The translations under genes were made by a program, and so were the position numbers. A DNA stretch of 64,000 nt from Escherichia phage IME178, in sequence record NC_104190.1; one strand, given 5' to 3'. This document shows, piece after piece, positions 6,423 through 63,728 of the stretch (position 1 is its first letter; each line of letters begins with the position of its first letter). The notes under the pieces were generated by a model. That model searched no databases, was not told the DNA's origin, and saw only the letters and a list, made by a program, of their open reading frames with translations.

Positions 6423-6479
6423 ATTCTCATAGTTTGAAAGAACTATTCTGTTTAATTCTTAATTAAGGAAATATAAAAT

Positions 6480-6890
6480 ATGACTACTCCAACTCAGTGG
6501 ACTGATGAACTGTTCGAAAAAATGTCTTCCGAATACGTTGCTCGTATGGAACAATTCCCAGAGGATGAACGTCCTGGTGTTAGCATGGAAATTGTTAGCG
6601 AAATTGCCCAGGAAAATGGTGTAACTCCGAACGGTTTTCGTATGAAGCTAACTAAAGCAGGTTTGTATATCAAGAAAGCTGCTGGCTCTGCTTCTAAATC
6701 TAGTGCATCTACTGGAGAAAAAGCTTCTGGTGGTTCTCGCACTTCTAAAGCTCAAGCTCATGCCGACCTTCGTTCAGCATTCTCTGATGCTGGCCTAGCA
6801 CCAGATTTTCTGGATGATGCAATTATCGACAAACTGACCGGTAAAGCGGCTGCTCATCTGGCAGAAGCAATCCGAGCTATCACTAAGTAA
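6480..6890 (+). CDS. A2-like paralogue (small, apparently highly expressed protein)
   Basis: 136 aa with E. coli-optimal codons; shares W(T/N)(D/E)E, EIA(Q/K), KLT(K/S)A and a C-terminal KL(T/E) helix with the 135-aa A2-like ORF at 56311..56718. Confidence 0.6.
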   Translation: MTTPTQWTDELFEKMSSEYVARMEQFPEDERPGVSMEIVSEIAQENGVTPNGFRMKLTKAGLYIKKAAGSASKSSASTGEKASGGSRTSKAQAHADLRSAFSDAGLAPDFLDDAIIDKLTGKAAAHLAEAIRAITK

Positions 6891-10375: not shown

Positions 10376-10392
10376 TCTGGTAAATTAAACCT

Positions 10393-10425
10393 AAGGGGAG
10401 GGGGCTATGCTCCTTCCCCTTTTTG
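10393..10425 (+). terminator. rho-independent terminator (GGGGAGGG...CCTTCCCC + TTTT)
   Basis: GC-rich hairpin and T-run directly after the D5-like stop. Confidence 0.6.
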
Positions 10426-10457
10426 CATTTAGAAGGCACGAAAGCGTGCAAAGGAGA

Positions 10458-19962: not shown

Positions 19963-21781
19963 GACACTAAAATTTAGTAACGTTATGTCTTACGGTAAGG
20001 ACATCGTAATTCATTTCGATAAGAATCCAGTTACCCAACTAATTGGTGGCAATGGGTTAGGGAAATCCACTATTGCTACTGTTATTGAAGAACTATTTTA
20101 TAATAAGAACTCTCGAGGTATCAAGAAGGATGCTCTGTTCTCTTGGTCTTCTCAGAAAAAAGAGTATGATATGCACGCTTACTTCTCGAAAGATGAAGAT
20201 GAGTATGAACTACACAAAGTAGTTAAATCAACTGCTAAAGTAACTCTTATTAAGAATGGAGAAGATATTAGTGGACACACGGCAACCCAAACATACAAGA
20301 TGATTGAAGAGATTATGGGTGGTGACTTCCAAACATTCACCAAACTAATTTATCAATCAGTGGGTTCCAATCTAGACTTTCTAAAAGCAACAGATGCAAC
20401 ACGTAAGGCTTTCCTTGTTAACTTGTTTAATCAAGAACAGTACAAAGAAATGTCAGAAACTATTAAGGCTGACCGTAAAGAAATAGCAAATACCTTAAAT
20501 AATTTGCAGGGCCAAATGGCTGTAATTACGAAAATCCTTAATGGAAAGAATAACTTGGGAACCTTACAAGAACCAGTCGAAGTGCCTGAGTTTGATGAAG
20601 AGCCATTAGCACAAGAACTTACTGAATCGAAAATTAAGGCGGCATTAGCCAAGTCTCAAGAGGCTAATATTACTAAATTGCGTAATTTGGACAAAGCTGT
20701 ACAAGTTGCCGAACAATCTTTCGAGCCTTTCAAAAATTTACCCGCGCCCACTGACCAAAATGAAGAGATCTCGAGTGTTACGCGTGACCTAACGATTGTG
20801 ACCTCACGTGCGGGCGAAGTCAAGAAACGTTATCAGAAGTTCAAGCAAGAAGCTTCAAATACTGAATGTCCTACTTGTGGTACTCATCTGGATACAACTG
20901 CTGCTCAAAAAGCAATGGATATGGCCAGAATAGAATATGACCCCCTGTTCAAAGAGAAGCAATCTCTTGAAGCTAAGCTAGAACAGTTGAAGAAAGAACA
21001 ACTTGAGTACGTTGCGTATACTAGAGCAAAGGATGCTTTGGATAAAGCAGTAGCAGCTAGAGACGAATTCAAAAATTCAATGAGTGATACTTCTTTTGAA
21101 GAACTCAATGTGCAAAACCTACAGGTGCAAATCCGACAATTAGAACAGGAAATAGCTGATGGCCGTTCTAAGGTTGCAATTGCCAAAGAGCATAATGCAA
21201 ATATTGAACTAGCCAATGCAAAATATAAAGCGAAACTAGAACAGATTGAGAAAGCTGAGGCAGAAATGTCTGAGATTACTTCCAAACTGGATGGAGTATC
21301 AGAAGCTGTTGCTGATCTCGATATTCTGATCGCCGCATTGAAAAATCTGGTAGGGTATAAACTAGAACATAGTGTGAAAGTATTTGAAGAACTAATTAAT
21401 AAATATCTTTCTATTATGACTGGTGGTAAGTTCGCACTTGGATTTGAACTTGATGAAACGAAATTACAAGTAGTAATCTTCAATGATGGAAACCGTACTA
21501 GTATGGAGAACTGCTCTACTGGTCAGCAAAGTCGAATCAACCTAGCAACTCTGTTAGCTATTCGAATGCTACTAACATCTATTAGTAAAGTTAATATTAA
21601 TCTTCTATTCCTTGATGAAGTAATTAGCTTTATTGATACGAAAGGACTTGACACTCTTGTTGAATTATTAAATGAGGAAGAAAGTCTAAATTCTATCATT
21701 GTTTCTCATGGGCATACGCATCCATTAGCCCATAAGATTACTGTCAAAAAAGATGCAGAAGGATTTTCCTACTTAGAATAA
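19943..21781 (+). CDS. SbcC/Rad50-like ATPase (D13-like)
   Basis: Walker A GGNGLGKST, long coiled-coil, CPTCG zinc-hook, Walker B LLFLDEV; track 19841..21781, ATG 19943 in the same frame. Confidence 0.7.
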   Translation: MSKITIKTLKFSNVMSYGKDIVIHFDKNPVTQLIGGNGLGKSTIATVIEELFYNKNSRGIKKDALFSWSSQKKEYDMHAYFSKDEDEYELHKVVKSTAKVTLIKNGEDISGHTATQTYKMIEEIMGGDFQTFTKLIYQSVGSNLDFLKATDATRKAFLVNLFNQEQYKEMSETIKADRKEIANTLNNLQGQMAVITKILNGKNNLGTLQEPVEVPEFDEEPLAQELTESKIKAALAKSQEANITKLRNLDKAVQVAEQSFEPFKNLPAPTDQNEEISSVTRDLTIVTSRAGEVKKRYQKFKQEASNTECPTCGTHLDTTAAQKAMDMARIEYDPLFKEKQSLEAKLEQLKKEQLEYVAYTRAKDALDKAVAARDEFKNSMSDTSFEELNVQNLQVQIRQLEQEIADGRSKVAIAKEHNANIELANAKYKAKLEQIEKAEAEMSEITSKLDGVSEAVADLDILIAALKNLVGYKLEHSVKVFEELINKYLSIMTGGKFALGFELDETKLQVVIFNDGNRTSMENCSTGQQSRINLATLLAIRMLLTSISKVNINLLFLDEVISFIDTKGLDTLVELLNEEESLNSIIVSHGHTHPLAHKITVKKDAEGFSYLE

Positions 21782-52538: not shown

Positions 52539-52695
52539 CGCTAATTACCAATCCTCCAAATTTCATAAGATTACACATGGAGGTGTGTCCAGTGGCCCCC
52601 CAGATGAGAATGAGTCTCATTACCGCCCGGTACTTAGCAGGCTAATAGTCACGGCATGTTACCATTACACACCGTGACTATTTCAACTTTAATTA

Positions 52696-53430
52696 TTACG
52701 CAACTTTTAATTTCTCAATATATTGTTGCGGGCTGCAACTATATTCTGCGCGTTCTTCCTCGGTCATACCTTCCCAGCATAATTTCAAACGATCAGCTAG
52801 GAACTGATAATCATTATCATCGTCGAGAGATTCATCAATAAAGGTTTCACCTATCAATGCCACGCCGATTGATAGAATATCATTAACGGCTTGTGCGTCC
52901 AGCGTTTTAAATCCGTATGACGCTGCCGCTGATAACACGCCTTTATGATCATCAATCATTGTAAATTCAGCGTTCGGATATAACTGTTTAAATAACTCAA
53001 AATAATAAGATTTATATACTGCGTCTTTACTATGGTAAATTTCGCTAACCTTATCAGCTTTAAAATATTTATGCAGTGTATCACGGGAAAATACGCGAAT
53101 ATTGCTTTTATCACGACCGCGTAAACCTTGTTTGCGCAGGAAGTAATAATCTGATTTGCTCATTAGTCGAGCGGTACAAATAATGTTTAAAGTATTTGCG
53201 TCATTCATGCACTGGCGCATGTATTCAACTAATGGTAATAATGTATCTTGCATTATTAAATGATGTTTGCAGGCTTCATTTTTATATTTATTTAAATCTA
53301 AATTGCCCTCATTATCAAAGCAAGGCGCTACACGATGGAAAGAATTAACGATAGTGCCGTCTAAATCCCAAATCATAACGCGGGAAATATGCGGGAAGCT
53401 GCGGGAAATGTTCATAATAGCTTTATTCAT
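52696..53430 (-). CDS. dmp: 5'-deoxyribonucleotidase (dmp-like, HAD family)
   Basis: 244 aa with HAD motif I WDLDGT; same length as T5 Dmp; lies in the pre-early block. Confidence 0.7.
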   Translation of the reverse strand: MNKAIMNISRSFPHISRVMIWDLDGTIVNSFHRVAPCFDNEGNLDLNKYKNEACKHHLIMQDTLLPLVEYMRQCMNDANTLNIICTARLMSKSDYYFLRKQGLRGRDKSNIRVFSRDTLHKYFKADKVSEIYHSKDAVYKSYYFELFKQLYPNAEFTMIDDHKGVLSAAASYGFKTLDAQAVNDILSIGVALIGETFIDESLDDDNDYQFLADRLKLCWEGMTEEERAEYSCSPQQYIEKLKVA

Positions 53431-53516
53431 TTGTTACGTTCTCCATTTAAGGGATTAGATTAATTCAATCTAGCCCACTAATTATATTTTATTAGTGGGC
53501 TATGTTCAATTAACTA

Positions 53517-53915
53517 TTAGAACGCCAGACCAAAAGCAAGAGCATCAGCGATAAAACTAACATCCTCACCTGATACATGGGAACGAATACCCGCGCAGGT
53601 ATATACTTTTGCGCTGATCAATTGATCATCGAGGCAAGCGAGGCAAGGCGCGACAACTGCAAAGGCTAGACCGGATTTTACGGCGTCAATGATAATCGTT
53701 TCTTGTTTCACTGTGTCAACATAAACACCTGCGGCCTTAATGTAGCTACTTGCGCGGCCTTGCGCATAGGCAAAGGTAGTAACCTGCAAAGCGTCATTGA
53801 AATCTAACAGATCATCAATAACGTGCCCCGCCTCGACGTGGTAACGTTCACCATTAGAATAAACCAGAACAATGGAAGACTGAGCGCGGTCAAATGGAAT
53901 ATTTTGCTTTTTCAT
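53517..53915 (-). CDS. hypothetical pre-early protein
   Basis: 132-aa ORF flanked by intergenic stem-loops. Confidence 0.45.
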   Translation of the reverse strand: MKKQNIPFDRAQSSIVLVYSNGERYHVEAGHVIDDLLDFNDALQVTTFAYAQGRASSYIKAAGVYVDTVKQETIIIDAVKSGLAFAVVAPCLACLDDQLISAKVYTCAGIRSHVSGEDVSFIADALAFGLAF

Positions 53916-53953
53916 GTTTATAAAACTCCAATTAGTTTAATAATGGATTTAAT

Positions 53954-54211
53954 TTATTTGATAATAATCTGCATCTGGTACGGCGTTAATTCACCGTTTA
54001 CGGGTAAATTATTATCGCTTAGCCACTCATAAAAAGCGCTATCGTCATCAAAAGGAACAACATCATTATCACGGGAATCGACGGAAATAATGCCATCAGT
54101 ATTAGTTTTGGCGGCTAGGATAGGCCCGAAGCTGTAAACTTTATCGGATTCCATTTCATCCGGTGAAATGAATACTTTTTCGTCCAATGTTTTGGGTAAT
54201 GTAACTTTCAT
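53954..54211 (-). CDS. hypothetical pre-early protein (acidic)
   Basis: 85-aa ORF. Confidence 0.45.
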   Translation of the reverse strand: MKVTLPKTLDEKVFISPDEMESDKVYSFGPILAAKTNTDGIISVDSRDNDVVPFDDDSAFYEWLSDNNLPVNGELTPYQMQIIIK

Positions 54212-54267
54212 TTTTTGTGACTCCTGTAATAGCGGCTGTATTTCAAGCCGCTAGGGAAATAATTTAA

Positions 54268-55932
54268 TTACGCAAAGAATTTACCATTCTTAAAGTCAAT
54301 CAAAGTGCGTTGACCGTTTGCATAGGTAATTAAATGCGTTTGCGTCCAGCTTGACGCGCCAACGTTGTAACCCATATCCAGACTACCCGCTACGCCAGCG
54401 GTATATACGCCACCGTAAATGCTGGCGGTATGGGTGTGCCCCGTGTTCAATTTACCCAATTTCTTAAATTGTTTCGGGTTGCCACGGCTGCCGTTAATGC
54501 CGTTGTGACCGTGTACGCCGCATTCAATACCTGCAATCTTGAAAGATTGGTCAGTGGTTAGGAAAATGGCGTTAAACTCACAACCTGCAACCTTGCGCAA
54601 CGCATAATCTAGCACGTTGAAGGTATCGTCATGCTCACCGATTGCCGCATAGATTGCAGCATTCAGGCGGTGATACAGTTCCGCGTTCGCGGGATCGTCT
54701 TTGATGTTAGCATTACGATCATCAAGCCAACGGGATAACGCTAGATCGTGATTTGATTCAACAATGATTGTTTGACTAAAATCACGTTCCATTGACTCCA
54801 GCACGCGACCGGTATCGATAAGGTCATCCAGAACTTTATCACGTCCGGCGGCATACTGTTTCGCTAGGAATACACCCGAAGCGCGGTTATGATGATTGCG
54901 CGATGTAAAATCGTGAACGTCATGGATAAACTGATATTTTGGTTTAAGAATATCAAGCAAGCTATTTTCGCCAGCCCAAGATGCGGCGGCGCACTCTTCA
55001 TCTAATTTTTCGGCGTGAATATCACCATACTGCAAGCCTAAAACATGCCCCGATGTCTCATAGCATCCGGCAGGAGTAGCGCACACATTCAGATCATAAA
55101 ATACCCCGCTTTCGTCCATCGTTTCGAGCTGGCGTACAAAAAATTCCCCGTCCTCGTCGAACTCAACAATCAGCGCACCGAAGTTATGCAGTGCTTCCGC
55201 TTTTTGTCCTGCTTTCTGCTGAATGTAGTTTTTGAGCGTTGCCGTTCCGGTTGAGTACATACGGCGCACTACTTCACCTTTTAAAGCTGGTACGCTTTCA
55301 GCGGTAATTTTAGCGTGACCAATTGCCAGACCTTCAATATTTAAAGCCGTTGCAGTTTCTGCGAATCCAGAAAGCGGATAATCTGCGGTAGGCAAAACAT
55401 TAATTTCAGCCATGAAAGCAAAACGGCGGTTATTTAAAAACACGTTTTTGCTGCAAATATATTTATCAAACGCAGAATCATATTTGATTCCGTCTGCACC
55501 TTCTCCATTTTGGAAGCCGTTTTTATTATAAATATACTTAGAAACAAGCAAATCGGCACCGATATATTCAGCGAATTTTTCCAGACTTGCTAAAAAGTTT
55601 TTATGCGGGAAAGTATTATTCTGAATCGACGTAATAATAAAACGTTTACCCTGTTTTACTTCCCATTGCTCAACCGTACTAGAAACAATCCCAGCCGCTT
55701 CGGGGCGCTCGTCGTTTTTAATGGCTTTTGCTACTTTTGCCGCTTTCGGTTTAGCTGGTTTGTTTGCTTCCAGCCAATCACAAATGGCGGTGGAATGTTT
55801 CGTTGTATCGTAGACTGCTTTTGATATATCGTCGCAGACCTCCAGTTTAGTAGCGCGCAGACGTTTACCATAGAAATTAAAGTCAGCGGCCATTTTCAGA
55901 ATAACGGTTTGTTTTTCTGCGGAAATAATCAT
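54268..55932 (-). CDS. A1: A1-like pre-early protein (metallophosphoesterase-type nuclease)
   Basis: 554 aa (T5 A1 is 556 aa); metallophosphatase motifs GDIHAE, GVHGHNG, GHTHT. Confidence 0.7.
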   Translation of the reverse strand: MIISAEKQTVILKMAADFNFYGKRLRATKLEVCDDISKAVYDTTKHSTAICDWLEANKPAKPKAAKVAKAIKNDERPEAAGIVSSTVEQWEVKQGKRFIITSIQNNTFPHKNFLASLEKFAEYIGADLLVSKYIYNKNGFQNGEGADGIKYDSAFDKYICSKNVFLNNRRFAFMAEINVLPTADYPLSGFAETATALNIEGLAIGHAKITAESVPALKGEVVRRMYSTGTATLKNYIQQKAGQKAEALHNFGALIVEFDEDGEFFVRQLETMDESGVFYDLNVCATPAGCYETSGHVLGLQYGDIHAEKLDEECAAASWAGENSLLDILKPKYQFIHDVHDFTSRNHHNRASGVFLAKQYAAGRDKVLDDLIDTGRVLESMERDFSQTIIVESNHDLALSRWLDDRNANIKDDPANAELYHRLNAAIYAAIGEHDDTFNVLDYALRKVAGCEFNAIFLTTDQSFKIAGIECGVHGHNGINGSRGNPKQFKKLGKLNTGHTHTASIYGGVYTAGVAGSLDMGYNVGASSWTQTHLITYANGQRTLIDFKNGKFFA

Positions 55933-56022
55933 AGTAATAAAACTCCATTAAAGGGATTAGATTAATAATGGCAATATTGCCAAATATAACGCCTCAAATA
56001 ATAGGCGTTATAATTTGCAACA

Positions 56023-56220
56023 TTAATTTAAAGGCACTAGGCTAGAACTAACACCACAAGCAACGGCAGCGATAAAACAAAGCAGACCTAAACGTTTTGC
56101 TAACTTAGATTTACGTTTAAAATAATACGAATCTAAATCATTTTGAAAATAAGCGAACAATAATGAGGCCGCCATAATAAACAAGCCTAGAATCAAAGAT
56201 TCAGTAGGGAAGAAAACCAT
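56023..56220 (-). CDS. small two-helix membrane protein
   Basis: 65 aa, two hydrophobic segments. Confidence 0.45.
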   Translation of the reverse strand: MVFFPTESLILGLFIMAASLLFAYFQNDLDSYYFKRKSKLAKRLGLLCFIAAVACGVSSSLVPLN

Positions 56221-56310
56221 TTTTAAAACTCCTGATTTAAGGGAAGAAAATAACTATCGCTAAACAGTTATATTATTGCCCCCTCACTAGAAGGGGGCAA
56301 GGTATAACTA

Positions 56311-56718
56311 TTATTCGCCTGCGGCTTGTTTTACTTCATCAGCAACGCCTAACAATTGCGCTACTGCGTCCAGCGTTTCAAGTTTTGCACTTTCAAGGCT
56401 TGCCAGATCATCGGCGTCTTTGATAATACCGGAATCGATAGCGTGTTTTGCAATTACTCGCACATAGTGAGCTTTACGCACAGAGCTACCGCCGCCAACT
56501 TTACGCGGCTTATCGCTTTTTTGATAGGCTTTTGCACTGGTCAATTTTGAGCGAACGGATACAGGGGAAGCCGCGCCTACTGCTTTTGCAATCTCTTTCA
56601 GGCCGTCGCTATTTGCGAAATCTAAACCGTTTTCATTGATTAACTGCTGGTACATAGAAACAGCTTTCTGAGTGTTTTCTTCGTTCCATGCGAATTTTGC
56701 GGTTTTAGCGTTAGTCAT
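56311..56718 (-). CDS. A2: A2-like pre-early DNA-binding protein
   Basis: 135 aa, adjacent to A1 as in T5; paralogous to the ORF at 6480..6890. Confidence 0.55.
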   Translation of the reverse strand: MTNAKTAKFAWNEENTQKAVSMYQQLINENGLDFANSDGLKEIAKAVGAASPVSVRSKLTSAKAYQKSDKPRKVGGGSSVRKAHYVRVIAKHAIDSGIIKDADDLASLESAKLETLDAVAQLLGVADEVKQAAGE

Positions 56719-56816
56719 GATAAAAACTCCTATTAGTTTAATTTAAGGGATTAGATTAACTTAATGTTAATCGTTATATCCCCCTGAAATAAGGGGGATA
56801 TAAAGTTAACACTAAA

Positions 56817-57068
56817 TTACAACACAGCTTCCCATTTTTCGTTGCGTTGAACAACCTTTACAACATCGCCGGATTTAACGCGAACGCTAAAAACGGGCTT
56901 GCCGTTGTTACTGCGTTCATTTTCAGCATATACCGCGTCGATTGTATCGAATGGCATAAGCGCCGCACCTTTAATACGTTCGGCCTTTCCGGTTAATTCA
57001 TCCGTTTTAGTAACGAAAGGAATAAAGACGGATTGACCAATTTTAGGCGCGGTAATAACGTTTTGCAT
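56817..57068 (-). CDS. hypothetical pre-early protein
   Basis: 83-aa ORF followed by stem-loop and leader motif. Confidence 0.45.
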   Translation of the reverse strand: MQNVITAPKIGQSVFIPFVTKTDELTGKAERIKGAALMPFDTIDAVYAENERSNNGKPVFSVRVKSGDVVKVVQRNEKWEAVL

Positions 57069-57829
57069 AATATAGACTCCAGTTATTTGATGGATTGTTC
57101 CGCATTACCTGCTAGAAGGTAGCAGGTAATAAGTAACAATCCGCTCGCCAGTTTAATCAATTTAAAGAACTCCACGTAGGCCGCTATATCCCGTTAGGGG
57201 GCGGGGCGCATTATGGTAAGCACCGACCGTCAAATTTTATCAAGTTATCGCTCTTATCGAACTGGGTACATCTTAAAACCTATCGGCTAGGTTGTCAAAT
57301 AATTTTTTGCAGTTTTTTATGATTTTCTTTCAAGTCAATCATAATGTTTCGCCAGATCATTTCCAGACCTTGCTGGCGACCTTTCTTGTACTGCGTGAAT
57401 CTATATTTTACTGATCTTTGAGCTACTGTCAACAAATTTTTTTGTTTTGCTATCTAGTGCCTTAATAGGCTTGCCAGTGATCAAAAGCGTTTGTTTCATA
57501 TCGTCGATTCCTTATAATGAATAAGTTTACCGCCGATAGGCTTTAAGATATACCCAATTTTTTAAAGAGCGCGGCGGTAAACTTTCCGCCGTGTAGTTCG
57601 TCATTGCCGCCCTACGAGATAAATAATAACAAACAACGAAAAAAGGCGCAACCTTATTTTTGTAAAGAAATGTAAAGACACGATCCACCGAACGGCGTGC
57701 GGCGACGGCCTAAAATTAAAAGAAACGGGCGCGCGAATACCACAAAACAGAGCAAATAGGCAAGTAATTTTTTCATTTATATTTGCTTTGCCCTACTTGA
57801 CAAAATCTAAAAAGCTCGTGGCAGCGATA

Positions 57830-58320
57830 AACGGCTTATCCCCTTATGATGGGATGGCTAAAAACTTTATTGCGTTCTGGAGCGTTTTAGACGCATTCTA
57901 GCCCTGTTGATAACTTATCCCCAAAAGCAAAAATGAAATTTTCCTAGTTATCCACTTGACTTTTATTTTCCAGTGGATAACTACTTATTTTATGAAATAA
58001 ATTAATTGACTTTTGTTTGCTAGTATGTATCGGAAAGATAGCAGACTAATAATTGCTAGAATGATAATCATGCTGGTGGATTGTAACAGCGTAAACTATT
58101 AGCAGACTATTAATCACGGAAAATCTCATTAGCTAACTAACTATTTCATGTTATATAATATACATATAAATTAATGAGAAATAATAACTACAAGAAATCA
58201 TCTAGCTAAGTGAGAACCACTATCATTTAAGTTATCCACAACGTTATCTACAGCACAAAATAACTTGACACGATAGGCGGCGATATAAGGACTTTTGCAC
58301 AGACTTATCCACAGGTTATT
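57830..58320. promoter_or_regulatory. non-coding region with DnaA-box cluster and inverted repeats
   Basis: Exact TTATCCACA at 58232-58240 and 58305-58313; inverted TTATCCACT pair at 57948-57956/57972-57980; TTATCCCC half-boxes nearby. Confidence 0.55.
58131..58159 (+). promoter_or_regulatory. early-family promoter-like element (TATAAT at 58154-58159, conserved ATAAATTAATGAGAAA leader)
   Basis: Matches the conserved -10/leader motif; weak -35; about 450 bp upstream of 58608. Confidence 0.35.
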
Positions 58321-58607
58321 CCACTGTATAAATATACAGGGTAAAAAGGTAGTGTTAACAACTGCAATCAATTTTAAGCGGCCTAAATCGCATTCTAACG
58401 AGCTAAACGCTGCAAGGTAATAGTAAAGTAAAGCCTCAATGTTGCGGCCTGGTGGCTTCACCGTGTTTTGCTCTTTACTACACCGCTGCGCGGTTATCAT
58501 AAAAGTAGGCGCTAGGCAAGGAATAAAAAACATTTTCTTTTTTCTTGCCCCTAGTGAACAAATATCTATATCATTCACCTACCGATTAACGAGGGGGACA
58601 AAATAAA

Positions 58608-59612
58608 ATGTCTACTGTAAGAATTGCAGTACCAGCAAACGCCACTATTATTAAAGGCAGTTTGCGCAATCTGTTAGATGGTAGTAGCGTGGCAAGCGTA
58701 CAGCATACCGCTACTATTATCGAAAAGATTCATGATAGAATTTTAGACGATGAGGATACTCATTATTCAGTTGAAGATTTCACACAATTACTAGACCAGA
58801 AAAGGGCGCTAGTAATTTTCAACCGTGATTATCACATTTTCCGCAATCAACGTGGAAGTGATATTGATTTTATCATTGTTGGTTATAGTGAGTCTAATAG
58901 TGGTTACATTGCGCGATTATATAACGTGCGAGAAAAAGAGCAAGTAACAGCAACAAAAGTAAGTAATATCAGGACTGATAGTGTCGGATCGTTATTAACT
59001 AGCATTTGGCGTGAACTATCAGCTAATTACAAAAGTGCTGATAGTGATGTAATTTCTACAACTGGCGTGTTATGTTTTGAACGCGCTAGTGGCAACATGT
59101 TGATCCCTAGTGATTATTTAGAGTATGGGAATGAATCAAACGTTGCAAATGCTGGATTTACACTAAAACCAGTTGACAATATTGAAAAACATGCTGTAAA
59201 TTCTAACACTCAAAGCGTTAATACTCAAACTACTGAAAACAAAGGAAAAAACACCATGACCAAGATTGCTAACATCGTTGCCGCTAATAAATCCGCTGTT
59301 GTAAATGCTGCAAAACTGGAAGCGGGTAAAATTGCATTAACTCAAATCACGAAAGTAGCGGCTAAAAAAGCACCGTTCATGATCAAAGGTTATATCGATA
59401 CGCCTATTGGTCGGGTAGTGATTGCTAACCTGCTGAGTGTAGCGGTTGACCAGTACGCACCGACTAACCAAAAAGCGAAAGCGGTAGCAGGGGCGGCTAT
59501 GGAAGCGGCAATGCTGGAAATGGTGCAAAGTTTTAACATCGCTGAAATGATTGATGAAATGGTGAAAGGTATTGATATTTCTACTTTTACCACTAGCACC
59601 GAAATCGAGTAA
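58608..59612 (+). CDS. hypothetical protein
   Basis: 334-aa ORF with RBS GAGGGGGA; no recognisable motif. Confidence 0.55.
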   Translation: MSTVRIAVPANATIIKGSLRNLLDGSSVASVQHTATIIEKIHDRILDDEDTHYSVEDFTQLLDQKRALVIFNRDYHIFRNQRGSDIDFIIVGYSESNSGYIARLYNVREKEQVTATKVSNIRTDSVGSLLTSIWRELSANYKSADSDVISTTGVLCFERASGNMLIPSDYLEYGNESNVANAGFTLKPVDNIEKHAVNSNTQSVNTQTTENKGKNTMTKIANIVAANKSAVVNAAKLEAGKIALTQITKVAAKKAPFMIKGYIDTPIGRVVIANLLSVAVDQYAPTNQKAKAVAGAAMEAAMLEMVQSFNIAEMIDEMVKGIDISTFTTSTEIE

Positions 59613-59677
59613 TAATATTTAGTGGGGATTATTTCCCCACTTTACTATTCCCTTGTTAATTAATAGGAGGCTAATAA

Positions 59678-60172
59678 ATGGCTGAGGAAAAATACGGCTT
59701 CTCGCTAGGAGAAGTGAGCACGGCTAAACATGATATGATCATTTTAGTCGATTGTCATACTGGCTATTGCGGGGAAGGGAATACCGAGGAATATTTTGTT
59801 CCTGCTGGTACGGATCTAGACGCTTTAGCTCACGAAATGGCTATTGATAATGCTTCTCGTTTTGGTAGCGATGGATATGAGGATGAGGAAACGGGCGAAT
59901 GGTATGAGAATGAAAACGTATATGCAAGCCTTTATCATTATCAGTTAAGTAAATCCGGCACATATGTAAACGGCGGCGATCCTATTAATTCCGTCATGAA
60001 ATTAATTATTAAATATGGCGGCGTCGAGATAGTTGGTAACAAAGCGGTAATATACGCAAATCGACTAAAACAGCTTGTTTATATTCCTGATAGTACCCGA
60101 TGGGAGGAATACGCTGTTTTGCATGACGAATTGAAACGATGTTTCAATGTTGAATCCTTACAAGTAGTCTAA
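59678..60172 (+). CDS. hypothetical protein
   Basis: 164-aa ORF, RBS TAGGAGG. Confidence 0.55.
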   Translation: MAEEKYGFSLGEVSTAKHDMIILVDCHTGYCGEGNTEEYFVPAGTDLDALAHEMAIDNASRFGSDGYEDEETGEWYENENVYASLYHYQLSKSGTYVNGGDPINSVMKLIIKYGGVEIVGNKAVIYANRLKQLVYIPDSTRWEEYAVLHDELKRCFNVESLQVV

Positions 60173-60276
60173 TGTAAAGTTTTGTAAAGGTCGCCTTTTA
60201 TGGCGGCCTTTTTTGTTATAATGCCTTTACACCAAAACGGTGGATTGAAAATTTCCCAAAAATTTGGAGGCTTAAA

Positions 60277-60507
60277 ATGGTTGCTTATTCTTCTGCTAGT
60301 CATCTGTTCACCGCTCAAGGTTGGGTGTCCAATCGCGTTGTTATCCATGAGATGGTGCAGGAGTTCGGTATTGCTAAAACTTATAATACCATTCAGGAGC
60401 TTTATAACGCCGATAAAATCGATCAGCAAACGGCTGGCTTTTTACTGGATACCCTGAAAGCGGAACACTGTACCAAAAAACAAGCTGCAAAAATTGTTTT
60501 AATGTAA
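60277..60507 (+). CDS. hypothetical protein
   Basis: 76-aa ORF, RBS GGAGG. Confidence 0.5.
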   Translation: MVAYSSASHLFTAQGWVSNRVVIHEMVQEFGIAKTYNTIQELYNADKIDQQTAGFLLDTLKAEHCTKKQAAKIVLM

Positions 60508-60553
60508 TTAGTAACGGGGGATATTATATCCCCCACTGACTAGGAGAATAAAA

Positions 60554-60703
60554 ATGATTATTTTTCGAGCTATTCTGGCGGGTATCTTGGGCGCTATTTT
60601 ATCGTTGTTTGCAATAGCTTTCGGTGTTCACGCCGTTATTATCGGCGCTGGCATTGCTGCGTTTTCTTATCTGCTGGGCTGCATGACTAGTAAAGGAGAA
60701 TAA
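60554..60703 (+). CDS. small hydrophobic membrane protein (49 aa)
   Basis: MIIFRAILAGILGAILSLFAIAFGVHAVIIGAGIAAFSYLLGCMTSKGE; RBS TAGGAGAA; below the ORF-track cutoff. Confidence 0.45.
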   Translation: MIIFRAILAGILGAILSLFAIAFGVHAVIIGAGIAAFSYLLGCMTSKGE

Positions 60704-60705
60704 AA

Positions 60706-60918
60706 ATGATTCGTAACGTTTCCCTTGCGCGTTCGAAAGGTTTTAAGCTGGTGGATGTTAACACGTTCGAGCGGGAAGATTGTAAAATCGAATATGTAGC
60801 ACGTAACAAAAATGCCTTTCGTGTTACTGAGAAAAAATTCGACAAGCGCGGCAACGTGATAGCTGAAACAGTTAAACACTTTGCCACCTTTTACGCTGCG
60901 TTTCGTGGGGTATTATAA
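60706..60918 (+). CDS. hypothetical protein
   Basis: 70-aa ORF, RBS AAAGGAGAA. Confidence 0.5.
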   Translation: MIRNVSLARSKGFKLVDVNTFEREDCKIEYVARNKNAFRVTEKKFDKRGNVIAETVKHFATFYAAFRGVL

Positions 60919-60919
60919 A

Positions 60920-61264
60920 ATGGTTATTTATGAGGGCAATCGTTTTGTTGCTAATTGCCGTCCGGCATTATTAGCAAACTACTTAAACCAGCTTTCACCA
61001 GCTTATAAGGGCGTTATTAATATTTATGAGGGCAAGGCGCATTATAAAGTCAATGCGGTTGTTGCCCGTGAACTAGCGTTTCAATTTTTGACCTTTGCAT
61101 CTTGCGACGTTCAGGTTATGGGTGAAGCATTAATTGCAGAAAATGATGATGATTTTATTAATATTTTCCGCAAGGTATGTACCGAGCGCCTGATAATGAA
61201 AGGCGCGTATATTCAATCCACTGCGGATAGTATTGAAACAGCGTTTCGAAAGGTGGCGCAATGA
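60920..61264 (+). CDS. hypothetical protein
   Basis: ATG 60920 in frame with track ORF 60881..61264. Confidence 0.5.
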   Translation: MVIYEGNRFVANCRPALLANYLNQLSPAYKGVINIYEGKAHYKVNAVVARELAFQFLTFASCDVQVMGEALIAENDDDFINIFRKVCTERLIMKGAYIQSTADSIETAFRKVAQ

Positions 61265-61476
61265 GCGAAATTACTTGGGGTACACTGCTGAAGGTTAAAC
61301 GGGTAAAATTAACACAAGATTTATGGGGAGTAGGTAAAACAGGGGATGTATTCAATGTGTTTAAAGACTCACATCATAGGTTTATAAGAAGAAATAACAA
61401 TATGGGCACAGCGTTTTATTTAATTGATTTAATCAAGTTATATGGTGAGGATATTTTCGAGCTAGAATATGAATAA
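61261..61476 (+). CDS. hypothetical protein
   Basis: 71-aa ORF with ATGA overlap. Confidence 0.45.
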   Translation: MSEITWGTLLKVKRVKLTQDLWGVGKTGDVFNVFKDSHHRFIRRNNNMGTAFYLIDLIKLYGEDIFELEYE

Positions 61477-61609
61477 CTATATAATTTTTTTGAGGTATTG
61501 CAATGAGATTATATATTTTCGTTGGTAATGTTGAGGCAGCTAATGATTCCGCTGGTGGCGATAACGTTCGCCGCTATTGACAAAAATATATTTACTAGGA
61601 GTTATTATT

Positions 61610-61804
61610 ATGGTTACGCTGATTTGCATTAAAGCCGATGGCGACACGATAGCACGGAAAGGGCAAAAGTATAAAGCCCAAAAAGATCGACTACTCAAAA
61701 CAGTTGAGCGTTACACAGTGCCCGATCTCAAATATTCAGTAGTTGGGCGCGAGGGGATTCTAAGGGCGACACTTGAGAACGCTATTTTTGAGATAGTCAA
61801 CTAA
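61610..61804 (+). CDS. hypothetical protein
   Basis: ATG 61610 after AGGAG (track 61577..61804). Confidence 0.45.
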   Translation: MVTLICIKADGDTIARKGQKYKAQKDRLLKTVERYTVPDLKYSVVGREGILRATLENAIFEIVN

Positions 61805-61819
61805 TAACGGGGCGTTACT

Positions 61820-62014
61820 ATGAGCAATAAAATTGTTGTAACCAAAATCAGTACAATGGTTGATGTTTTTTACGTGCCCGATACGCCGGAAAACCGACAA
61901 GCGGTCGAGCGTGGTGAGTATGATAAGGTGATTTATGATCACGATGGTTATTATCAGCATTTAGTGGATTCCTACGGGGAGGAGGAGAAGATCACGCATC
62001 GACTACCCGACTAA
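61820..62014 (+). CDS. hypothetical protein
   Basis: 64-aa ORF. Confidence 0.45.
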   Translation: MSNKIVVTKISTMVDVFYVPDTPENRQAVERGEYDKVIYDHDGYYQHLVDSYGEEEKITHRLPD

Positions 62015-62291
62015 TAATCACGGGGCGCAACTATCAGGAAGTGCCCCCAATTGTCAAATGAGAATGCTTCTCATTTGACCGCGCCCGCGATGGTTAGCCT
62101 GCTAATGGTTAGGGTGTTACGTGTCGCCTTGTGTGATCGTTAGCGAGCTAACTAATTTCTAAGCCTCCTCCAATTTTGCCCCTGTTTTAGTATCCCCAAC
62201 AAAATTAAACGCGTTAGAATGCGATCTAGGACGTTTTAGCGGTATATTAGAATTATTCACTGCGTAGGAATACTGTATATTTGTACAGTAG

Positions 62292-62381
62292 GATAAGCTG
62301 TTGATAAGTCTGTTGATAACGCTTCAAAATGGCTAGGATTTTGTCAAGTCAAATCGTGCTGTTGATAAGTCTGTGGATAAC
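62292..62381. promoter_or_regulatory. duplicated GCTGTTGATAAGTCTGT(T/G)GATAAC element with exact DnaA box on the reverse strand
   Basis: Two copies about 60 bp apart; TGTGGATAA at 62372-62380. Confidence 0.5.
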
Positions 62382-62614
62382 TTAAATAATAGTGTTTCTC
62401 ACTTCCATTCTTGAATGATTCTCATTATCATTCGCATTTCACTATCTAACTAATAATCATTTCACTTTTTAAATGAGAATCGTTTCACTTCCTGAATAAT
62501 TTTTATTTCACTTTCTAAATACAAATCATTATCATTCGCATTCCGCTTTTTAAATGAGAATGATTCTCATTTTTATTCGCATTCAGGCGAGCAGGGCAAT
62601 TGCCCTGCGCTTTT

Positions 62615-63264
62615 GTGCAAAACCGACATTTGCCCCCATGGATTACGCGTGGGCGTGTATGTGCGAATCCGACAATTTTTGGTAGTGTGCAAATCCGACC
62701 CGAAAAATTTTCATAGTGTGCGAATCCGACAATGAATTTTCCTAAAAACTCCAGCAATCCGATGCTGCGCATCAATCCTGTGGAATTAGCTAGAATATGT
62801 GCAAATCCGACATGGGTTTATTTGTGCGAATCCGACAAGATTTTTGTGACTTCGATGAGAGGGTGTGTGATTGTGTGGGTTTGGGGAGAAGTTGAGAGAG
62901 CGAGAGAAAATTAGGGGAACTGCGAGAGGGGCGCATGTTTGGTGCGGAGCACCCGATTTGCGGGGGTTTTGGAGAAGAGTTGAGAAGATTTGGGTTAATT
63001 TGAGATAAGTGCAGATAAAGTAAAATTTTATTAGCTAAATTGGGTTAATTTGAGATAAGTGCAGATAAAGTAAAATTTTATTAGCTAAATGGGGCAAAAT
63101 AGCTTGACAAGTGAAAATTTCTGTGGCTCTAAAAACTCAGGCAATCATGGGCCTTCGGCCCGAAATAATGCTGCCATTTTCAGGAGATTATATATTCCTA
63201 AAAACTTAGGCAATTGTGCAAATCCGACCATAAATTTCTAGAAACACAATGTGCAAATCCGACA
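62615..63264. repeat. array of eight irregularly spaced copies of GTGC(A/G)AA(T/A)CCGAC(A/C)
   Basis: Copies at 62615, 62661, 62687, 62718, 62799, 62824, 63216, 63251; an 18-bp perfect palindrome GCAGGGCAATTGCCCTGC at 62591-62608. Confidence 0.6.
62991..63090. repeat. perfect 50-bp tandem duplication
   Basis: TGGGTTAATTTGAGATAAGTGCAGATAAAGTAAAATTTTATTAGCTAAAT occurs twice back to back. Confidence 0.7.
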
Positions 63265-63728
63265 GTAATTTCTGGAAATGTGTTTTCAAAAAATGTCTCC
63301 TAGAAATAACCGCCCTCCCTATAACCGCCCTGTATTAAACCGCCTAGTATATGTTCCTAGAAACTTAGGAGAACCGCCCACTAGAAGTGTGATATCTCGT
63401 GAGAACTCTGGAGTTTCTAGGAAAGTGTTGTGCCATCCTAGCAGATGAGCGGCAACAGGTGTATCATCTTGAACACAGATATTGCCTTTAAATATTATAA
63501 AATAAATTAAAAGTAAAGTAGCCCCCATTACATGTGTGCTTACTCGTGGGGCGCGTGATTAATTACGTAAGTCCTCGACTGTCATACCTCTGTTGCTCGG
63601 TCGCAAAGAGTTAACGAAGTCTCGTGTAATAATCATCGCCCCTAGAGTTCAAAACAAGAGTTGTTTTTAATCTATGTGATTATTATAACATGTGCCGCAA
63701 TGAGTTGTCAAGAAGATTTTGTTAACGT

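What the first reader, a model, noticed from the sequence alone, without database searches (positions are those of the whole stretch)
57100..63700. Repeat-dense non-coding regions with DnaA boxes bracket the second half of the pre-early block
Two non-coding stretches (57.1-58.6 kb and 62.0-63.7 kb) carry exact DnaA boxes (58232-58240, 58305-58313, 62372-62380), an inverted box pair (57948-57980), eight copies of a 14-bp motif, a perfect 50-bp tandem duplication, an 18-bp palindrome and four AACCGCC(C) copies at 63310-63380. In T5 the injection-stop signal at the inner edge of the terminal repeat is described as rich in repeats, palindromes and DnaA boxes, so one of these regions is a candidate for that signal and for the terminal-repeat boundary. 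The exact boundary cannot be set from a single copy.
Basis: partly seen in the sequence, partly recalled or inferred. Interest (0 to 1): 0.65.

Follow-up and report, generated by a model that had tools for sequence, protein, structure and literature searches.

The report
T5-type injection-stop and terminal-repeat regions
These two repeat-rich stretches are the well-described untranslated control regions of a T5-like phage's long terminal repeat (pre-early promoters on the left, the "injection stop signal" and the repeat's right end on the right), so the finding is real but already known, apart from near-perfect host LexA sites that the T5 papers I could read do not mention.

Summary
The window is a T5-like phage (Tequintavirus) with one collapsed copy of the terminal repeat. 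By homology the repeat spans 52586/7-63129.

Region 62.0-63.7 kb is the homologue of T5's annotated injection stop signal (Davison's Repeat Region 3) and contains the right repeat boundary at 63129|63130. Region 57.1-58.6 kb is Repeat Regions 1+2. It holds the pre-early promoters P_D/E20 and P_H22, two small frameshifted genes (hdi, 009), and an inverted copy of the stop-signal core.

The two cores form a 160-nt inverted repeat, each with two DnaA-box pairs 61 bp apart, as published for 25 T5-like phages.

Additions from this work:
- Each core also has a near-consensus LexA (SOS) box at a fixed distance, in all 31 relatives compared.
- The 14-bp repeats sit at fixed offsets from the genome end.
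- The 18-bp palindrome carries the T5 major-nick consensus.
- The 50-bp duplication is private to this genome.

How transfer stops remains unproven.

The parts
52586..63129 (.). Single (collapsed) copy of the long direct terminal repeat, about 10.54 kb. It corresponds to the first-step-transfer / pre-early block.
   Evidence: Left end: the genomes that carry both repeats start (T)GTCCAGTGG..., which is window 52586/7. Right end: 8 such genomes end at the equivalent of 63129. Set by homology; not confirmed with reads.
57244..57441 (-). Homologues of the strong T5 pre-early promoters P_D/E20 (57244-57318) and P_H22 (57380-57441). Consensus hexamers lie at 57298-57270 and 57432-57405.
   Evidence: blastn of the annotated T5 promoter features; promoter scan scores 10/12 and 11/12; the promoters were characterised experimentally in T5.
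57295..57604 (-). Homologues of T5.008 (hdi, host division inhibitor) at 57295-57499 and T5.009 at 57496-57604. Each is split over two reading frames; for hdi the split lies at an A run (the 009 split was not localised by a tool).
   Evidence: Translations and tblastn.
57905..57980 (.). Accessory DnaA-like boxes in two inverted pairs: TGTTGATAA-C-TTATCCCCA at 57905-57923, and TTATCCACT...AGTGGATAA at 57948-57980.
   Evidence: Present in only 13 of the 31 related loci and absent from T5, so lineage-specific.
58180..58341 (+). Left arm of the large inverted repeat (IRC-spacer-IRD). DnaA-box pairs at 58232-58252 (TTATCCACA-acg-TTATCTACA) and 58293-58313 (TTTTGCACA-gac-TTATCCACA); conserved TTGACA at 58265-58270; LexA-like box CACTGTATAAATATACAGGG at 58322-58341.
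58545..58595 (+). Promoter of the rightward pre-early operon (homologue of the T5 6411-6489 promoter upstream of gene 011).
58608..62014 (+). Rightward pre-early gene cassette bracketed by the two regions. It is mosaic between phages.
   Evidence: ORF list. Conservation tiles show parts present in only 1-12 of 31 loci. Pfam finds only DUF7566.
62057..62075 (.). Palindrome AATGAGAATGCTTCTCATT. The same family occurs at 62553-62571 and, with 2 mismatches, at 52603-52621, 17 bp inside the left terminus.
   Evidence: (I6).
62271..62432 (-). Right arm of the inverted repeat (IRD'-spacer-IRC', the core of the iss). LexA-like box TACTGTATATTTGTACAGTA at 62271-62290 (18/20 to the SOS consensus); DnaA-box pairs at 62299-62319 and 62360-62380 on the - strand.
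62422..62575 (+). DRE region: a 23-bp periodic array (62435-62530) flanked by TCATTATCATTCGCATT copies. It is made of GAGAAT/GATAAT-type hexamers. The estimated T5 shear point (end of first-step DNA) falls near 62.56 kb.
   Evidence: (D1). The shear point comes from Davison's preprint and was converted to window coordinates by my own arithmetic.
62591..62611 (-). 18-bp palindrome (62591-62608) followed by a T-run, so terminator-like for rightward transcription. It overlaps the T5 major-nick consensus A/GCGCAGG on the - strand (62604-62611).
   Evidence: The palindrome is exactly conserved, 472 bp from the right terminus in the loci that reach it.
62614..62836 (+). Six DRD repeats (TGTGCRAAWCCGAC) inside the terminal repeat.
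   Evidence: Their offsets from the terminus are the same, to within about 10 bp, in nearly all of the related loci where the terminus motif was found.
62800..63100 (+). Tract rich in G and poor in C (GC skew +0.56 to +0.70) just inside the right terminus.
62990..63089 (+). Perfect 2 x 50-bp tandem duplication, private to this genome.
   Evidence: All compared relatives have one copy at -89 from the terminus.
63104..63129 (+). Conserved terminal 26-mer TTGACAAGTGAAAATTTCTGTGGCTC. The right end of the terminal repeat is predicted at 63129|63130.
63215..63263 (+). Two further DRD repeats outside the repeat, 86 and 121 bp beyond the terminus.
63308..63379 (+). Four AACCGCC(C) repeats in the unique untranslated DNA just outside the repeat.
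63682..63711 (-). Leftward-facing consensus sigma-70 promoter: TTGACA, 18 nt, TATAAT, with TG before the -10 hexamer. It points into the untranslated region.
   Evidence: The -35 and -10 are kept in at least 16 of the 25 related loci where the terminus motif was found, across three spacer families.

Best explanation
These are the conserved cis-acting untranslated regions of the long terminal repeat of a T5-like (Tequintavirus) phage.

Shown by homology:
- Region 62.0-63.7 kb is T5's 'injection stop signal' region (Repeat Region 3). The right end of the terminal repeat lies inside it, at 63129|63130.
- Region 57.1-58.6 kb is Repeat Regions 1+2. It contains the strong leftward pre-early promoters with the small genes hdi and 009, the rightward operon promoter, and a second, inverted copy of the stop-signal core.
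- Each core is a fixed module. In order: a 23-nt conserved element; a pair of DnaA boxes (9-N3-9); a 40-bp spacer with TTGACA; a second pair of DnaA boxes; then a near-consensus LexA box 8 bp further on, on the side facing the gene cassette.

Inferred mechanism. After the left end enters the cell, transfer pauses with the right-hand core just inside the cytoplasm. The DRE array and the hairpin/nick site would then still be in the envelope channel or the tail. The core most likely works by binding abundant host DNA-binding proteins. DnaA was proposed by Davison; LexA is added here. The resulting nucleoprotein complex would hold or block the DNA until the pre-early proteins A1 and A2 act.

The outer part of the region comprises the DRD array at fixed offsets on both sides of the terminus, the G-rich tract and the terminal 26-mer. 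It more probably serves terminus generation and packaging than the stop.

The identity of the regions is near certain. The arrest mechanism is unproven; I give host-factor binding at the core a real role in the pause at roughly 0.3-0.4.
For: Identity:
- 471 phage records match, nearly all T5-like, at up to 93.5% identity over 90% of the region.
- The window is colinear with T5, K37 and MM-1, including dmp-A1-A2.
- The T5 iss, LTR end and nick map onto window 62006-63059, 63129 and 62611.
- The termini are confirmed with the database genomes that carry both repeats.

Architecture:
- Most of the 44 related loci have exactly four 9-N3-9 box pairs and no others. They lie two on each strand, 61 bp apart within each region.
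- This is as published for 25 phages (bioRxiv 10.1101/866236).
- The untranslated regions are present in 25-31 of 31 loci, while parts of the gene cassette between them are present in only 1-12.

LexA boxes:
- CTGT-N8-ACAG occurs 4 times in the window (0.75 expected; 0 of 100 shuffles reach 4), and two of these lie in the cores.
- All 31 loci have an 18-19/20 match to TACTGTATATATATACAGTA in Repeat Region 3, 28 bp before its first box pair in the 30 where that pair was detected. They also have a 16-19/20 match in Repeat Region 2, 29 bp after its second pair in 30 of 31.
- The LexA-box-plus-DnaA-pair pattern is found only on T5-like DNA: 36 stretches in 2.9 million viral contigs, nearly all on contigs of T5-like size (104-123 kb). 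The single hit in 185,579 bacterial and archaeal genomes is a T5-like fragment.
- Comparing the two arms within each of 26 genomes, 85% of box columns agree against 60% of the other columns.

Outer part:
- DRD offsets of about -465, -419, -393, -362, -282, -257, +86 and +121 from the terminus recur in nearly all loci.

Hairpin and nick:
-.
Against: - No experiment shows that DnaA, LexA or any host protein binds here, or that the sequence causes the stop. T5's 'iss' feature is defined by position near the shear point, not by mutation.
- Proteins binding DNA that is already in the cytoplasm would be expected to favour entry rather than block it. Davison needs membrane-bound DnaA to get round this.
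- The left copy is dispensable. Some T5-like types lack it. A T5 mutant deleted from hegG to gene 017 is viable with smaller plaques; that deletion probably removes the left copy, but the endpoints were not readable.
- Between phages the whole core (62191-62420) is at least 90% conserved in most columns, so the boxes are not isolated conserved islands.
- Only 4 of the 8 paired boxes in this window fit the strict TTWTNCACA consensus.
- Neither LexA box overlaps a convincing promoter.
Confidence: 0.8

Rival explanations
1. Transcription barrier rather than a DNA brake. In this view the LexA box, the four DnaA boxes, the hexamer array and the hairpin with its T-run form a roadblock and terminator at the end of the rightward pre-early operon. 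The barrier stops host RNA polymerase from running into, and reeling in, DNA that is still threaded through the envelope. Phage T7 uses such transcription to pull its genome in. The left copy would insulate the rightward operon on the side facing the strong leftward promoters.
For: - The core lies about 260 bp downstream of the last rightward ORF, which ends at 62014.
- The 18-bp palindrome scores as an intrinsic terminator for the + strand only.
- The T5 terminator annotated at 9275-9296 is absent here, so another stop for transcription is needed.
- The modules are mirror-symmetric about the cassette, and the cassette is found in either orientation in different lineages.
- From my own knowledge: DnaA bound to its box can block elongating RNA polymerase (Schaefer and Messer, 1988), and T7 entry is driven by transcription.
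Against: - From my own knowledge of the classical work: the first step stops at about 8% even when protein synthesis is blocked, so something other than transcription control sets the pause.
- No data here show termination or roadblocking at these sites.
- The strong leftward promoters lie to the left of the left copy and point away from it, so they never meet it.
Confidence: 0.15
2. Mostly a packaging and terminus-generation signal. The repeats around 62.6-63.4 kb, and possibly the whole right-hand region, would be recognised by the terminase machinery that cuts concatemers at 63129 and duplicates the terminal repeat. The pause in injection would then have another cause, such as capsid or tail mechanics or the nick.
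For: - DRD copies lie on both sides of the cut at fixed offsets in nearly all relatives, all in one orientation.
- The terminal 26-mer is conserved.
- The G-rich tract lies in the last 300 bp.
- AACCGCC-type motifs occur just outside the right end, and an ACCGCC motif occurs about 35 bp inside the left end.
- The AATGAGAAT..ATTCTCATT palindrome family occurs 17 bp from the left terminus and on either side of the core and DRE region, at 62057 and 62553.
- Inference: the left end is injected first, so it is packaged last, which would make the right-end cut the initiating cut. Repeat arrays flanking the cut site are typical of P1 and SPP1 pac sites (from my own knowledge).
Against: - It does not explain the second, inverted copy of the core 4 kb away, nor the near-consensus host-factor sites.
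- Most loci carry an extra DRD copy 1.8-2.4 kb beyond the terminus, and some carry others.
- The private 50-bp duplication shifts six DRDs relative to the cut without obvious harm, if the assembly is right.
- Terminase binding sites in T5 are not known to me.
Confidence: 0.35
3. The two 130-160-bp inverted repeats are mainly recombination substrates: conserved homology arms that allow inversion and exchange of the dispensable gene cassette between them. The DnaA-like and LexA-like sequences would be incidental.
For: - The cassette is highly mosaic between two conserved arms.
- In the most distant loci (L042, L043) the cassette is in the opposite orientation relative to A2.
- The distance between the arms varies from about 1.7 to 4.2 kb.
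Against: - Homology arms do not need matches to three different host-factor consensus sequences.
- The two arms have diverged to 72% identity yet keep the boxes (85% column agreement in boxes against 60% outside). This argues for selection on the boxes rather than on homology.
- 29 of 31 loci have the same cassette orientation.
Confidence: 0.1
4. A DnaA-dependent replication origin, or a DnaA-titrating site of the datA/DARS kind.
For: Clustered head-to-tail high-affinity R-type boxes with fixed spacing.
Against: - There is no GATC in either module and no 13-mer unwinding-element match next to them.
- T5 origins map near the genome centre, and replication genes are not expressed during the first step (Davison's preprint).
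- The boxes lie in terminal DNA of a virulent phage that degrades the host chromosome within minutes.
Confidence: 0.03

Closest known systems
Phage T5 injection stop signal region / Repeat Region 3 (NC_005859 misc_feature 9140-10149; Heusterspreute 1987, Wang 2005, Davison 2015 and 2020)
   Same: - Homologous sequence (83.5% identity over 1.3 kb).
- Same order of elements: IRD'-spacer-IRC' with two DnaA-box pairs, DRE repeats, 18-bp palindrome with the major nick site, DRD repeats, LTR end, then two more DRDs and AACCGCC repeats.
   Different: - A private 50-bp tandem duplication 40 bp inside the terminus.
- The T5 terminator hairpin at 9275-9296 is replaced by other sequence.
- 8 DRD copies here against 9 reported for T5.
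- This window has all 8 paired boxes where T5 has 7.
T5 Repeat Regions 1 and 2 (pre-early promoter region with P_D/E20 and P_H22; IRC-spacer-IRD)
   Same: Homologous promoters, hdi and 009, the 28-nt inverted repeat around them, and the inverted copy of the iss core.
   Different: - There is no hegG homing-endonuclease insert, so Regions 1 and 2 are contiguous, as in most T5-like phages.
- An extra block of about 100 bp carries four DnaA-like boxes (57905-57980); it is found in only 13 of the 31 related loci.
- hdi and 009 are frameshifted.
Bacterial DnaA-box clusters (oriC, datA, DARS)
   Same: Several R-type 9-mers (TTATCCACA and one-mismatch variants), closely spaced and in a fixed orientation.
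   Different: No GATC cluster, no unwinding element and no link to replication. The 9-N3-9 pairs 61 bp apart are a T5-specific layout.
LexA (SOS) operators of Enterobacteria, such as those of dinD, umuDC, sulA and the colicin genes (recalled from memory)
   Same: A 20-bp palindrome TACTGTATAwwTATACAGTA matching the consensus TACTG(TA)5CAGTA at 18-19 of 20 positions. That is as good as or better than most chromosomal SOS boxes.
   Different: It does not sit over a recognisable promoter. It lies in a virulent phage, paired with DnaA boxes, and is duplicated in inverted orientation. LexA binding is untested.
pac sites with repeat arrays flanking the cut (P1, SPP1) and the T7 concatemer junction (recalled from memory)
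   Same: Short direct repeats at fixed positions on both sides of a defined terminase cut, at the boundary of a terminal repeat.
   Different: No terminase-binding data exist for T5. The motif is unrelated in sequence, and further copies lie about 2 kb away.

Membership tests
T5-type terminal-repeat untranslated regions (iss / Repeat Regions 1-3) | Lies in a roughly 8-10.5 kb direct terminal repeat that carries the leftward dmp-A1-A2 pre-early operon | tested here: met
   Colinear with the T5, K37 and MM-1 LTRs. Termini mapped to 52586/7 and 63129. Only one copy is visible in the window.
T5-type terminal-repeat untranslated regions (iss / Repeat Regions 1-3) | Large untranslated region at the inner (right) end of the repeat, homologous to T5 9140-10149 | tested here: met
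   83.5% identity over T5 9321-10608, which corresponds to window 62183-63473.
T5-type terminal-repeat untranslated regions (iss / Repeat Regions 1-3) | IRD'-spacer-IRC' and its inverted partner IRC-spacer-IRD, with eight DnaA/DnaA* boxes in four pairs separated by 3 bp | tested here: met
   Pairs at 58232, 58293, 62299 and 62360, each set 61 bp apart. Inverted repeat I1.
T5-type terminal-repeat untranslated regions (iss / Repeat Regions 1-3) | DRE and DRD direct repeats to the right of the core | tested here: met
T5-type terminal-repeat untranslated regions (iss / Repeat Regions 1-3) | DNA transfer actually pauses here until A1 and A2 are made | not testable with these tools
   Needs blender/shear or time-resolved entry experiments.
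T5-type terminal-repeat untranslated regions (iss / Repeat Regions 1-3) | The sequence 52586-63129 is physically present at both genome ends | not testable with these tools
   Needs reads (coverage step, end pile-ups) or restriction mapping.
DnaA binding sites | 9-mer matching TTWTNCACA | tested here: met
   58232, 58293, 58305 and 62372 fit. The other four paired boxes are one-mismatch variants (TTATCTACA, and TTATCAACA three times).
DnaA binding sites | Binding of DnaA protein | not testable with these tools
LexA (SOS) box | CTGT-N8-ACAG palindrome with an AT-rich spacer, close to TACTGTATATATATACAGTA | tested here: met
   62271-62290 scores 18/20 and 58322-58341 scores 16/20. Conserved at fixed distances in 31 of 31 loci.
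LexA (SOS) box | Overlaps or adjoins a promoter that it represses | tested here: inconclusive
   Only weak leftward promoter-like sites overlap the boxes: 58358-58331 (10/12) and 62279-62252 (9/12).
LexA (SOS) box | Binding of LexA and SOS-dependent behaviour | not testable with these tools
No paper in the searchable library links LexA to T5-like phages.
Fur box | Match to GATAATGATAATCATTATC or to the 7-1-7 form TGATAATnATTATCA | tested here: inconclusive
   The terminal repeat has 14 positions scoring at least 14/19, against 0.72 in shuffles. In this window, however, the iss sites reach only 15/19. The one perfect 7-1-7 box (52805) lies inside dmp coding sequence (the - strand translates to DDNDY by my own reading). 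Other phages have perfect boxes in the DRE region.
oriC-like replication origin | DnaA boxes with an adjacent AT-rich 13-mer unwinding element and a GATC cluster | tested here: not met
   No GATC in either module, and no 13-mer match beside them.
T5 major nick site | 5'-R/GCGCRGG-3' on the nicked (-) strand | tested here: met
   AGCGCAGG at 62604-62611 (-). Consensus taken from PMC3517423. It maps to T5's annotated 9748/9749 interruption. The nick itself is not testable here.
Intrinsic terminator | GC-rich hairpin followed by a T-run | tested here: met
   62591-62608: 7-bp stem with 6 GC pairs, then GCTTTTGTG, on the + strand only. Function is untested.

The most novel reading that the evidence does not exclude
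The T5 injection stop signal is a landing pad for several host DNA-binding proteins, not for DnaA alone. Every T5-like phage examined keeps a near-perfect LexA operator at a fixed 8-bp distance from the DnaA-box array, in both inverted copies. Many also keep Fur-type boxes in the adjacent DRE array. If LexA binds, the pause or its release could be coupled to the host SOS state. A1-driven degradation of host DNA would activate RecA and destroy LexA, which could act as a timer for second-step transfer or for shut-off of pre-early transcription. As far as I could check, this LexA element is treated only as an unnamed palindrome (probably 'palD') in the T5 literature. I could not read Heusterspreute 1987, Wang 2005 or Davison 2015.
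Probability: 0.2. Interest if true: 0.75.

Novelty: already known. Interest (0 to 1): 0.35.

Why it matters
Two-step DNA injection by T5 has been known since the 1960s, and nobody knows why the DNA stops at 8%. This window adds no new kind of element. It is one more T5-like phage with the published architecture.

Three practical results follow:
- The terminal repeat of this collapsed assembly can be placed at 52586/7-63129. That fixes the genome ends and the pre-early gene set for annotation.
- The comparison shows which parts of the 'signal' keep a fixed register with the genome end (the DRD repeats, the palindrome with the nick site, the 26-mer) and which keep a fixed register with each other (LexA box and DnaA pairs). 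This separates a likely packaging part from a likely stop part.
- The conserved LexA operator gives a cheap, direct genetic test of the host-factor model (lexA, dnaA and fur host mutants; box mutations). The DnaA-only proposal has not yet received such a test.

Tried and rejected
- **Rfam scan of 56.8-64 kb:** only two sub-threshold chance hits.
- **Pfam on A2, 007 and eight cassette proteins:** two DUFs and no DNA-binding domain that could explain the palindromes.
- **Replication origin:** rejected, with no GATC or unwinding element.
- **Promoter in the spacer:** the conserved TTGACA between the box pairs has no usable -10 at 16-18 bp in either copy (read by eye; not reported by the scan).
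- **Boxes as isolated conserved islands between phages:** not so. The whole core is conserved in 21 unique sequences. Only the comparison of the two arms within genomes separates boxes from spacers.
- **Fur boxes in this window's iss:** weak (15/19), and the perfect box is in coding sequence. Kept only as a side note.
- **Host origin of the LexA+DnaA module:** a scan of 185,579 bacterial and archaeal genomes gave one hit, a T5-like fragment in a MAG.
- **Tandem duplication in other phages:** none found in the 31 loci or the listed top records of 421 matching GenBank phage records.
- **DRD-like pair at 21109/21124:** it lies inside a 646-aa ORF and was treated as probable chance.
- **Literature gaps:** Davison 2015 (PMC4743489) was looked up by DOI and PMC id and is not held; I did not read Heusterspreute 1987 or Wang 2005. 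I therefore cannot exclude that the LexA box was noted there.
- **T5 hegG-017 deletion mutant:** its exact endpoints were in figures that are not held.

Full report
**What the window is.** The 7-kb stretch matches 471 phage records, almost all T5-like Salmonella and Escherichia phages; the best is 93.5% identical over 90% of the query. It is colinear with the left terminal repeats of Kenya-K37, MM-1 and T5, including the leftward dmp-A1-A2 operon. DNA upstream of about 52.6 kb is unique-region DNA, so the window holds one collapsed copy of the repeat.

**Repeat boundaries.**
- Several genomes that carry both repeats start (T)GTCCAGTGG, which is window 52586/7.
- Eight such genomes end with ...TTGACAAGTGAAAATTTCTGTGGCTC or a close variant, which is window 63104-63129.
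- The annotated LTR ends of T5 (10219) and MM-1 (10407) both fall on window 63129; K37's annotated end falls 29 bp earlier.
- By homology the repeat is therefore 52586/7-63129, about 10.54 kb. No reads were available to confirm this for this phage.

**The observation.**
- The three exact TTATCCACA boxes are the only ones in 64 kb.
- Allowing one mismatch, 11 of the window's 30 boxes fall in 491 bp of the two regions (P about 1e-10 and 1e-8).
- The 14-bp motif occurs 8 times, all on one strand, against 0 expected.
- The 50-bp duplication is perfect.
- The 18-bp palindrome is at 62591-62608.
- The four AACCGCC(C) copies are at 63308-63379.
- Two corrections apply. The left stretch contains homologues of the small genes hdi (T5.008) and T5.009, both frameshifted. 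The two stretches are also partly inverted copies of each other: 160 nt, 72% complementary.

**What it corresponds to in the literature.** T5's record annotates 9140-10149 as 'injection stop signal (iss)' and 9748/9749 as the major single-chain interruption. These map to window 62006-63059 and 62611.

Davison's comparison of 25 T5-like phages (bioRxiv 10.1101/866236) describes three untranslated repeat regions.
- Regions 1 and 2 are contiguous in most phages and split by the hegG insert in T5. Region 2 contains IRC-spacer-IRD.
- Region 3 is mostly inside the LTR and overruns it by about 270 bp. It contains IRD'-spacer-IRC', the DRE repeats, many palindromes and nine DRD repeats.
- Eight DnaA or DnaA-like boxes lie in pairs separated by 3 bp.

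The window fits this description element by element.

**Anatomy, left region.**
- The homologues of P_D/E20 (57244-57318) and P_H22 (57380-57441) overlap hdi and 009.
- The left arm of the inverted repeat is at 58180-58341.
- The rightward operon promoter is at about 58545-58595.

**Anatomy, right region.** From left to right:
- a palindrome at 62057-62075;
- the right arm at 62271-62432;
- the DRE array with 23-bp periodicity at 62422-62575;
- the palindrome/hairpin at 62591-62608;
- six DRDs at 62614-62836;
- a G-rich, C-poor tract at 62800-63100, which includes the private 50-bp duplication;
- the terminus at 63129;
- two more DRDs, then four AACCGCC(C) copies;
- a leftward consensus promoter at 63711-63682.

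**Comparative tests.**
- In 44 related loci, most have exactly four 9-N3-9 box pairs and no others. They lie two on each strand, always 61 bp apart, while the distance between the two sets varies from about 1.7 to 4.2 kb.
- The untranslated regions are found in 25-31 of 31 non-redundant loci, like A1 and A2. Parts of the cassette between them occur in only 1-12 loci.
- DRD copies keep nearly the same offsets from the terminus (about -465 to -257, then +86 and +121) in nearly all of the loci where the terminus motif was found.
- The 18-bp palindrome is exactly conserved, 472 bp from the right end in the loci that reach it.
- The palindrome carries the published T5 major-nick consensus R/GCGCRGG on the - strand.
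- All relatives have a single copy of the 50-bp unit.

**A point the T5 papers I could read do not make: LexA boxes.**
- Each arm ends, on its cassette side, in a CTGT-N8-ACAG palindrome. Four occur in the window against 0.75 expected, and two are in the arms.
- The right-hand one, TACTGTATATTTGTACAGTA, matches the enterobacterial LexA operator consensus at 18 of 20 positions.
- All 31 related loci have an 18-19/20 match in Region 3, 28 bp before its first box pair in the 30 where that pair was detected. They also have a 16-19/20 match in Region 2, 29 bp after its second pair in 30 of 31. This includes the most distant phages, whose A2 is 66% identical.
- The combined LexA-box-plus-box-pair pattern occurs only on T5-like DNA: 36 stretches in IMG/VR. 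The single hit among 185,579 bacterial and archaeal genomes is a T5-like fragment.
- Comparing the two arms within each of 26 genomes, agreement is 85% in box columns and 60% elsewhere. Besides the boxes, a 23-nt element and the TTGACA are shared.
- Davison's preprint has no mention of LexA or SOS, and four literature searches found no link. I could not read Heusterspreute 1987, Wang 2005 or Davison 2015.
- Binding is inferred from sequence only.

**Fur-like sequences.** The repeat has 14 positions with at least 14/19 matches to the Fur box, against 0.72 in shuffles. A perfect 7-1-7 box at 52805 is conserved about 100-230 bp from the start of the loci that begin at or near the left terminus, and other phages have perfect boxes in the DRE array. 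In this window, however, the DRE sites reach only 15/19, and the perfect box lies in dmp coding sequence rich in Asp, Asn and Tyr codons. I leave this as an unexplained side observation.

**How it most likely works.**

*Shown:* identity, position, architecture and conservation.

*Inferred:* transfer pauses with the right-hand core just inside the cell. The estimated T5 shear point maps near 62.56 kb, 50 bp from the nick site. The core most likely acts through host proteins. Davison proposes membrane-bound DnaA; the LexA operator suggests that more than one host factor is involved.

I think the outer elements, which keep register with the terminus, more likely serve terminase cutting and repeat duplication. 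The left end enters first, so it should be packaged last, which would make the right-end cut the initiating cut.

*Arguments against a simple brake:*
- Cytoplasmic binding should help entry rather than block it.
- The left copy is missing in some lineages.
- The left copy is probably deleted in a viable T5 mutant.
- No binding or mutational data exist.

*Rivals:* a transcription roadblock/terminator that stops RNA polymerase from reeling in DNA; a purely packaging role; recombination arms; and a replication origin. For recombination arms, the cassette is inverted in the most distant loci. The origin reading is rejected: there is no GATC and no unwinding element.

**Verdict.** The finding is real and was correctly interpreted, but it is an instance of a structure described since 1987 and compared across 25 phages in 2020. 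Its value lies in annotation, namely the repeat ends at 52586/7 and 63129. It also gives a sharper, testable version of the host-factor hypothesis for a long-standing open question.

Noticed in passing
window 62271-62290 and 58322-58341: Near-consensus LexA (SOS) operators (18/20 and 16/20). They are conserved in all 31 T5-like loci compared, at a fixed distance from the DnaA-box pairs in 30 of them, and are not mentioned in the T5 papers I could read.
   Followed up: yes
window 57295-57604 (- strand): The homologues of hdi (T5.008) and T5.009 are each split over two reading frames; for hdi the split lies at an A run. These are either sequencing indels in this assembly or real pseudogenes of two small pre-early genes.
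   Followed up: partly
window 52805-52819, and the whole repeat 52586-63129: A perfect Fur-type 7-1-7 box TGATAATCATTATCA lies inside the 3' coding end of dmp. It is conserved in nearly all relatives, about 100-230 bp from the start of the loci that begin at or near the left terminus. The repeat has 14 Fur-like positions (at least 14/19) against 0.7 expected, while the other 52.6 kb have 5.
   Followed up: partly
window 63682-63711 (- strand): A perfect extended -10 sigma-70 promoter (TTGACA, 18 nt, TATAAT, with TG before the -10) faces left into the untranslated DNA about 580 bp outside the repeat. The -35 and -10 are kept in at least 16 of the 25 related loci where the terminus motif was found, across three different spacer families. 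The downstream RNA folds better than shuffles (z = -3.6). No annotated gene lies there.
   Followed up: partly
window 62990-63089: The 50-bp tandem duplication is private to this genome. All 31 related loci and the best GenBank matches have a single copy, 89 bp before the terminus. It moves the six inner DRDs and the nick site 50 bp further from the end.
   Followed up: yes
window 20741, 33416, 48322 and 62604 (all - strand): All four matches to the T5 major-nick consensus RGCGCRGG are on the - strand and none on the + strand, in line with T5's strand-specific nicks. By my own arithmetic, the 20.7-kb site is near where T5's 64.8% nick (position recalled from memory) would fall.
   Followed up: no
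loci L042 and L043 (contigs of 111 and 123 kb; A2 66% identical): The gene cassette between the two inverted-repeat modules lies in the opposite orientation relative to A2. A homologue of window 59274-59583 aligns on the other strand. This suggests that inversion between the repeats has occurred during evolution.
   Followed up: partly
window 62800-63100: Strong G-over-C skew (+0.56 to +0.70), with several GGGG runs on the strand whose 3' end is the right terminus.
   Followed up: no
window 52603-52621, 62057-62075 and 62553-62571: One palindrome family (AATGAGAAT-NN-TTCTCATT) occurs 17 bp inside the left terminus and on either side of the core and DRE region, at 62057 and 62553. It may be a site for an unknown dimeric protein.
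   Followed up: partly
window 58205-58231 and 62381-62407: A 23-nt element, AAGTGAGAAaCACTaTcATTTAAG, lies next to the outer DnaA-box pair. It is as well kept between the two arms as the boxes themselves, and 62391-62406 is invariant in 21 unique sequences. No known factor is assigned to it.
   Followed up: no
window 21109-21137: Two DRD-like 14-mers (2 mismatches and 1 mismatch), 15 bp apart, lie inside a 646-aa ORF far from the repeat. Most related loci also have one extra DRD copy 1.8-2.4 kb beyond the terminus, which would be off this window.
   Followed up: no
locus L081 (RZZU01000077.1, 3 kb): A contig binned in a 'Clostridia bacterium' MAG is a fragment of a T5-like first-step-transfer region, so it is probably a binning contaminant.
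   Followed up: yes
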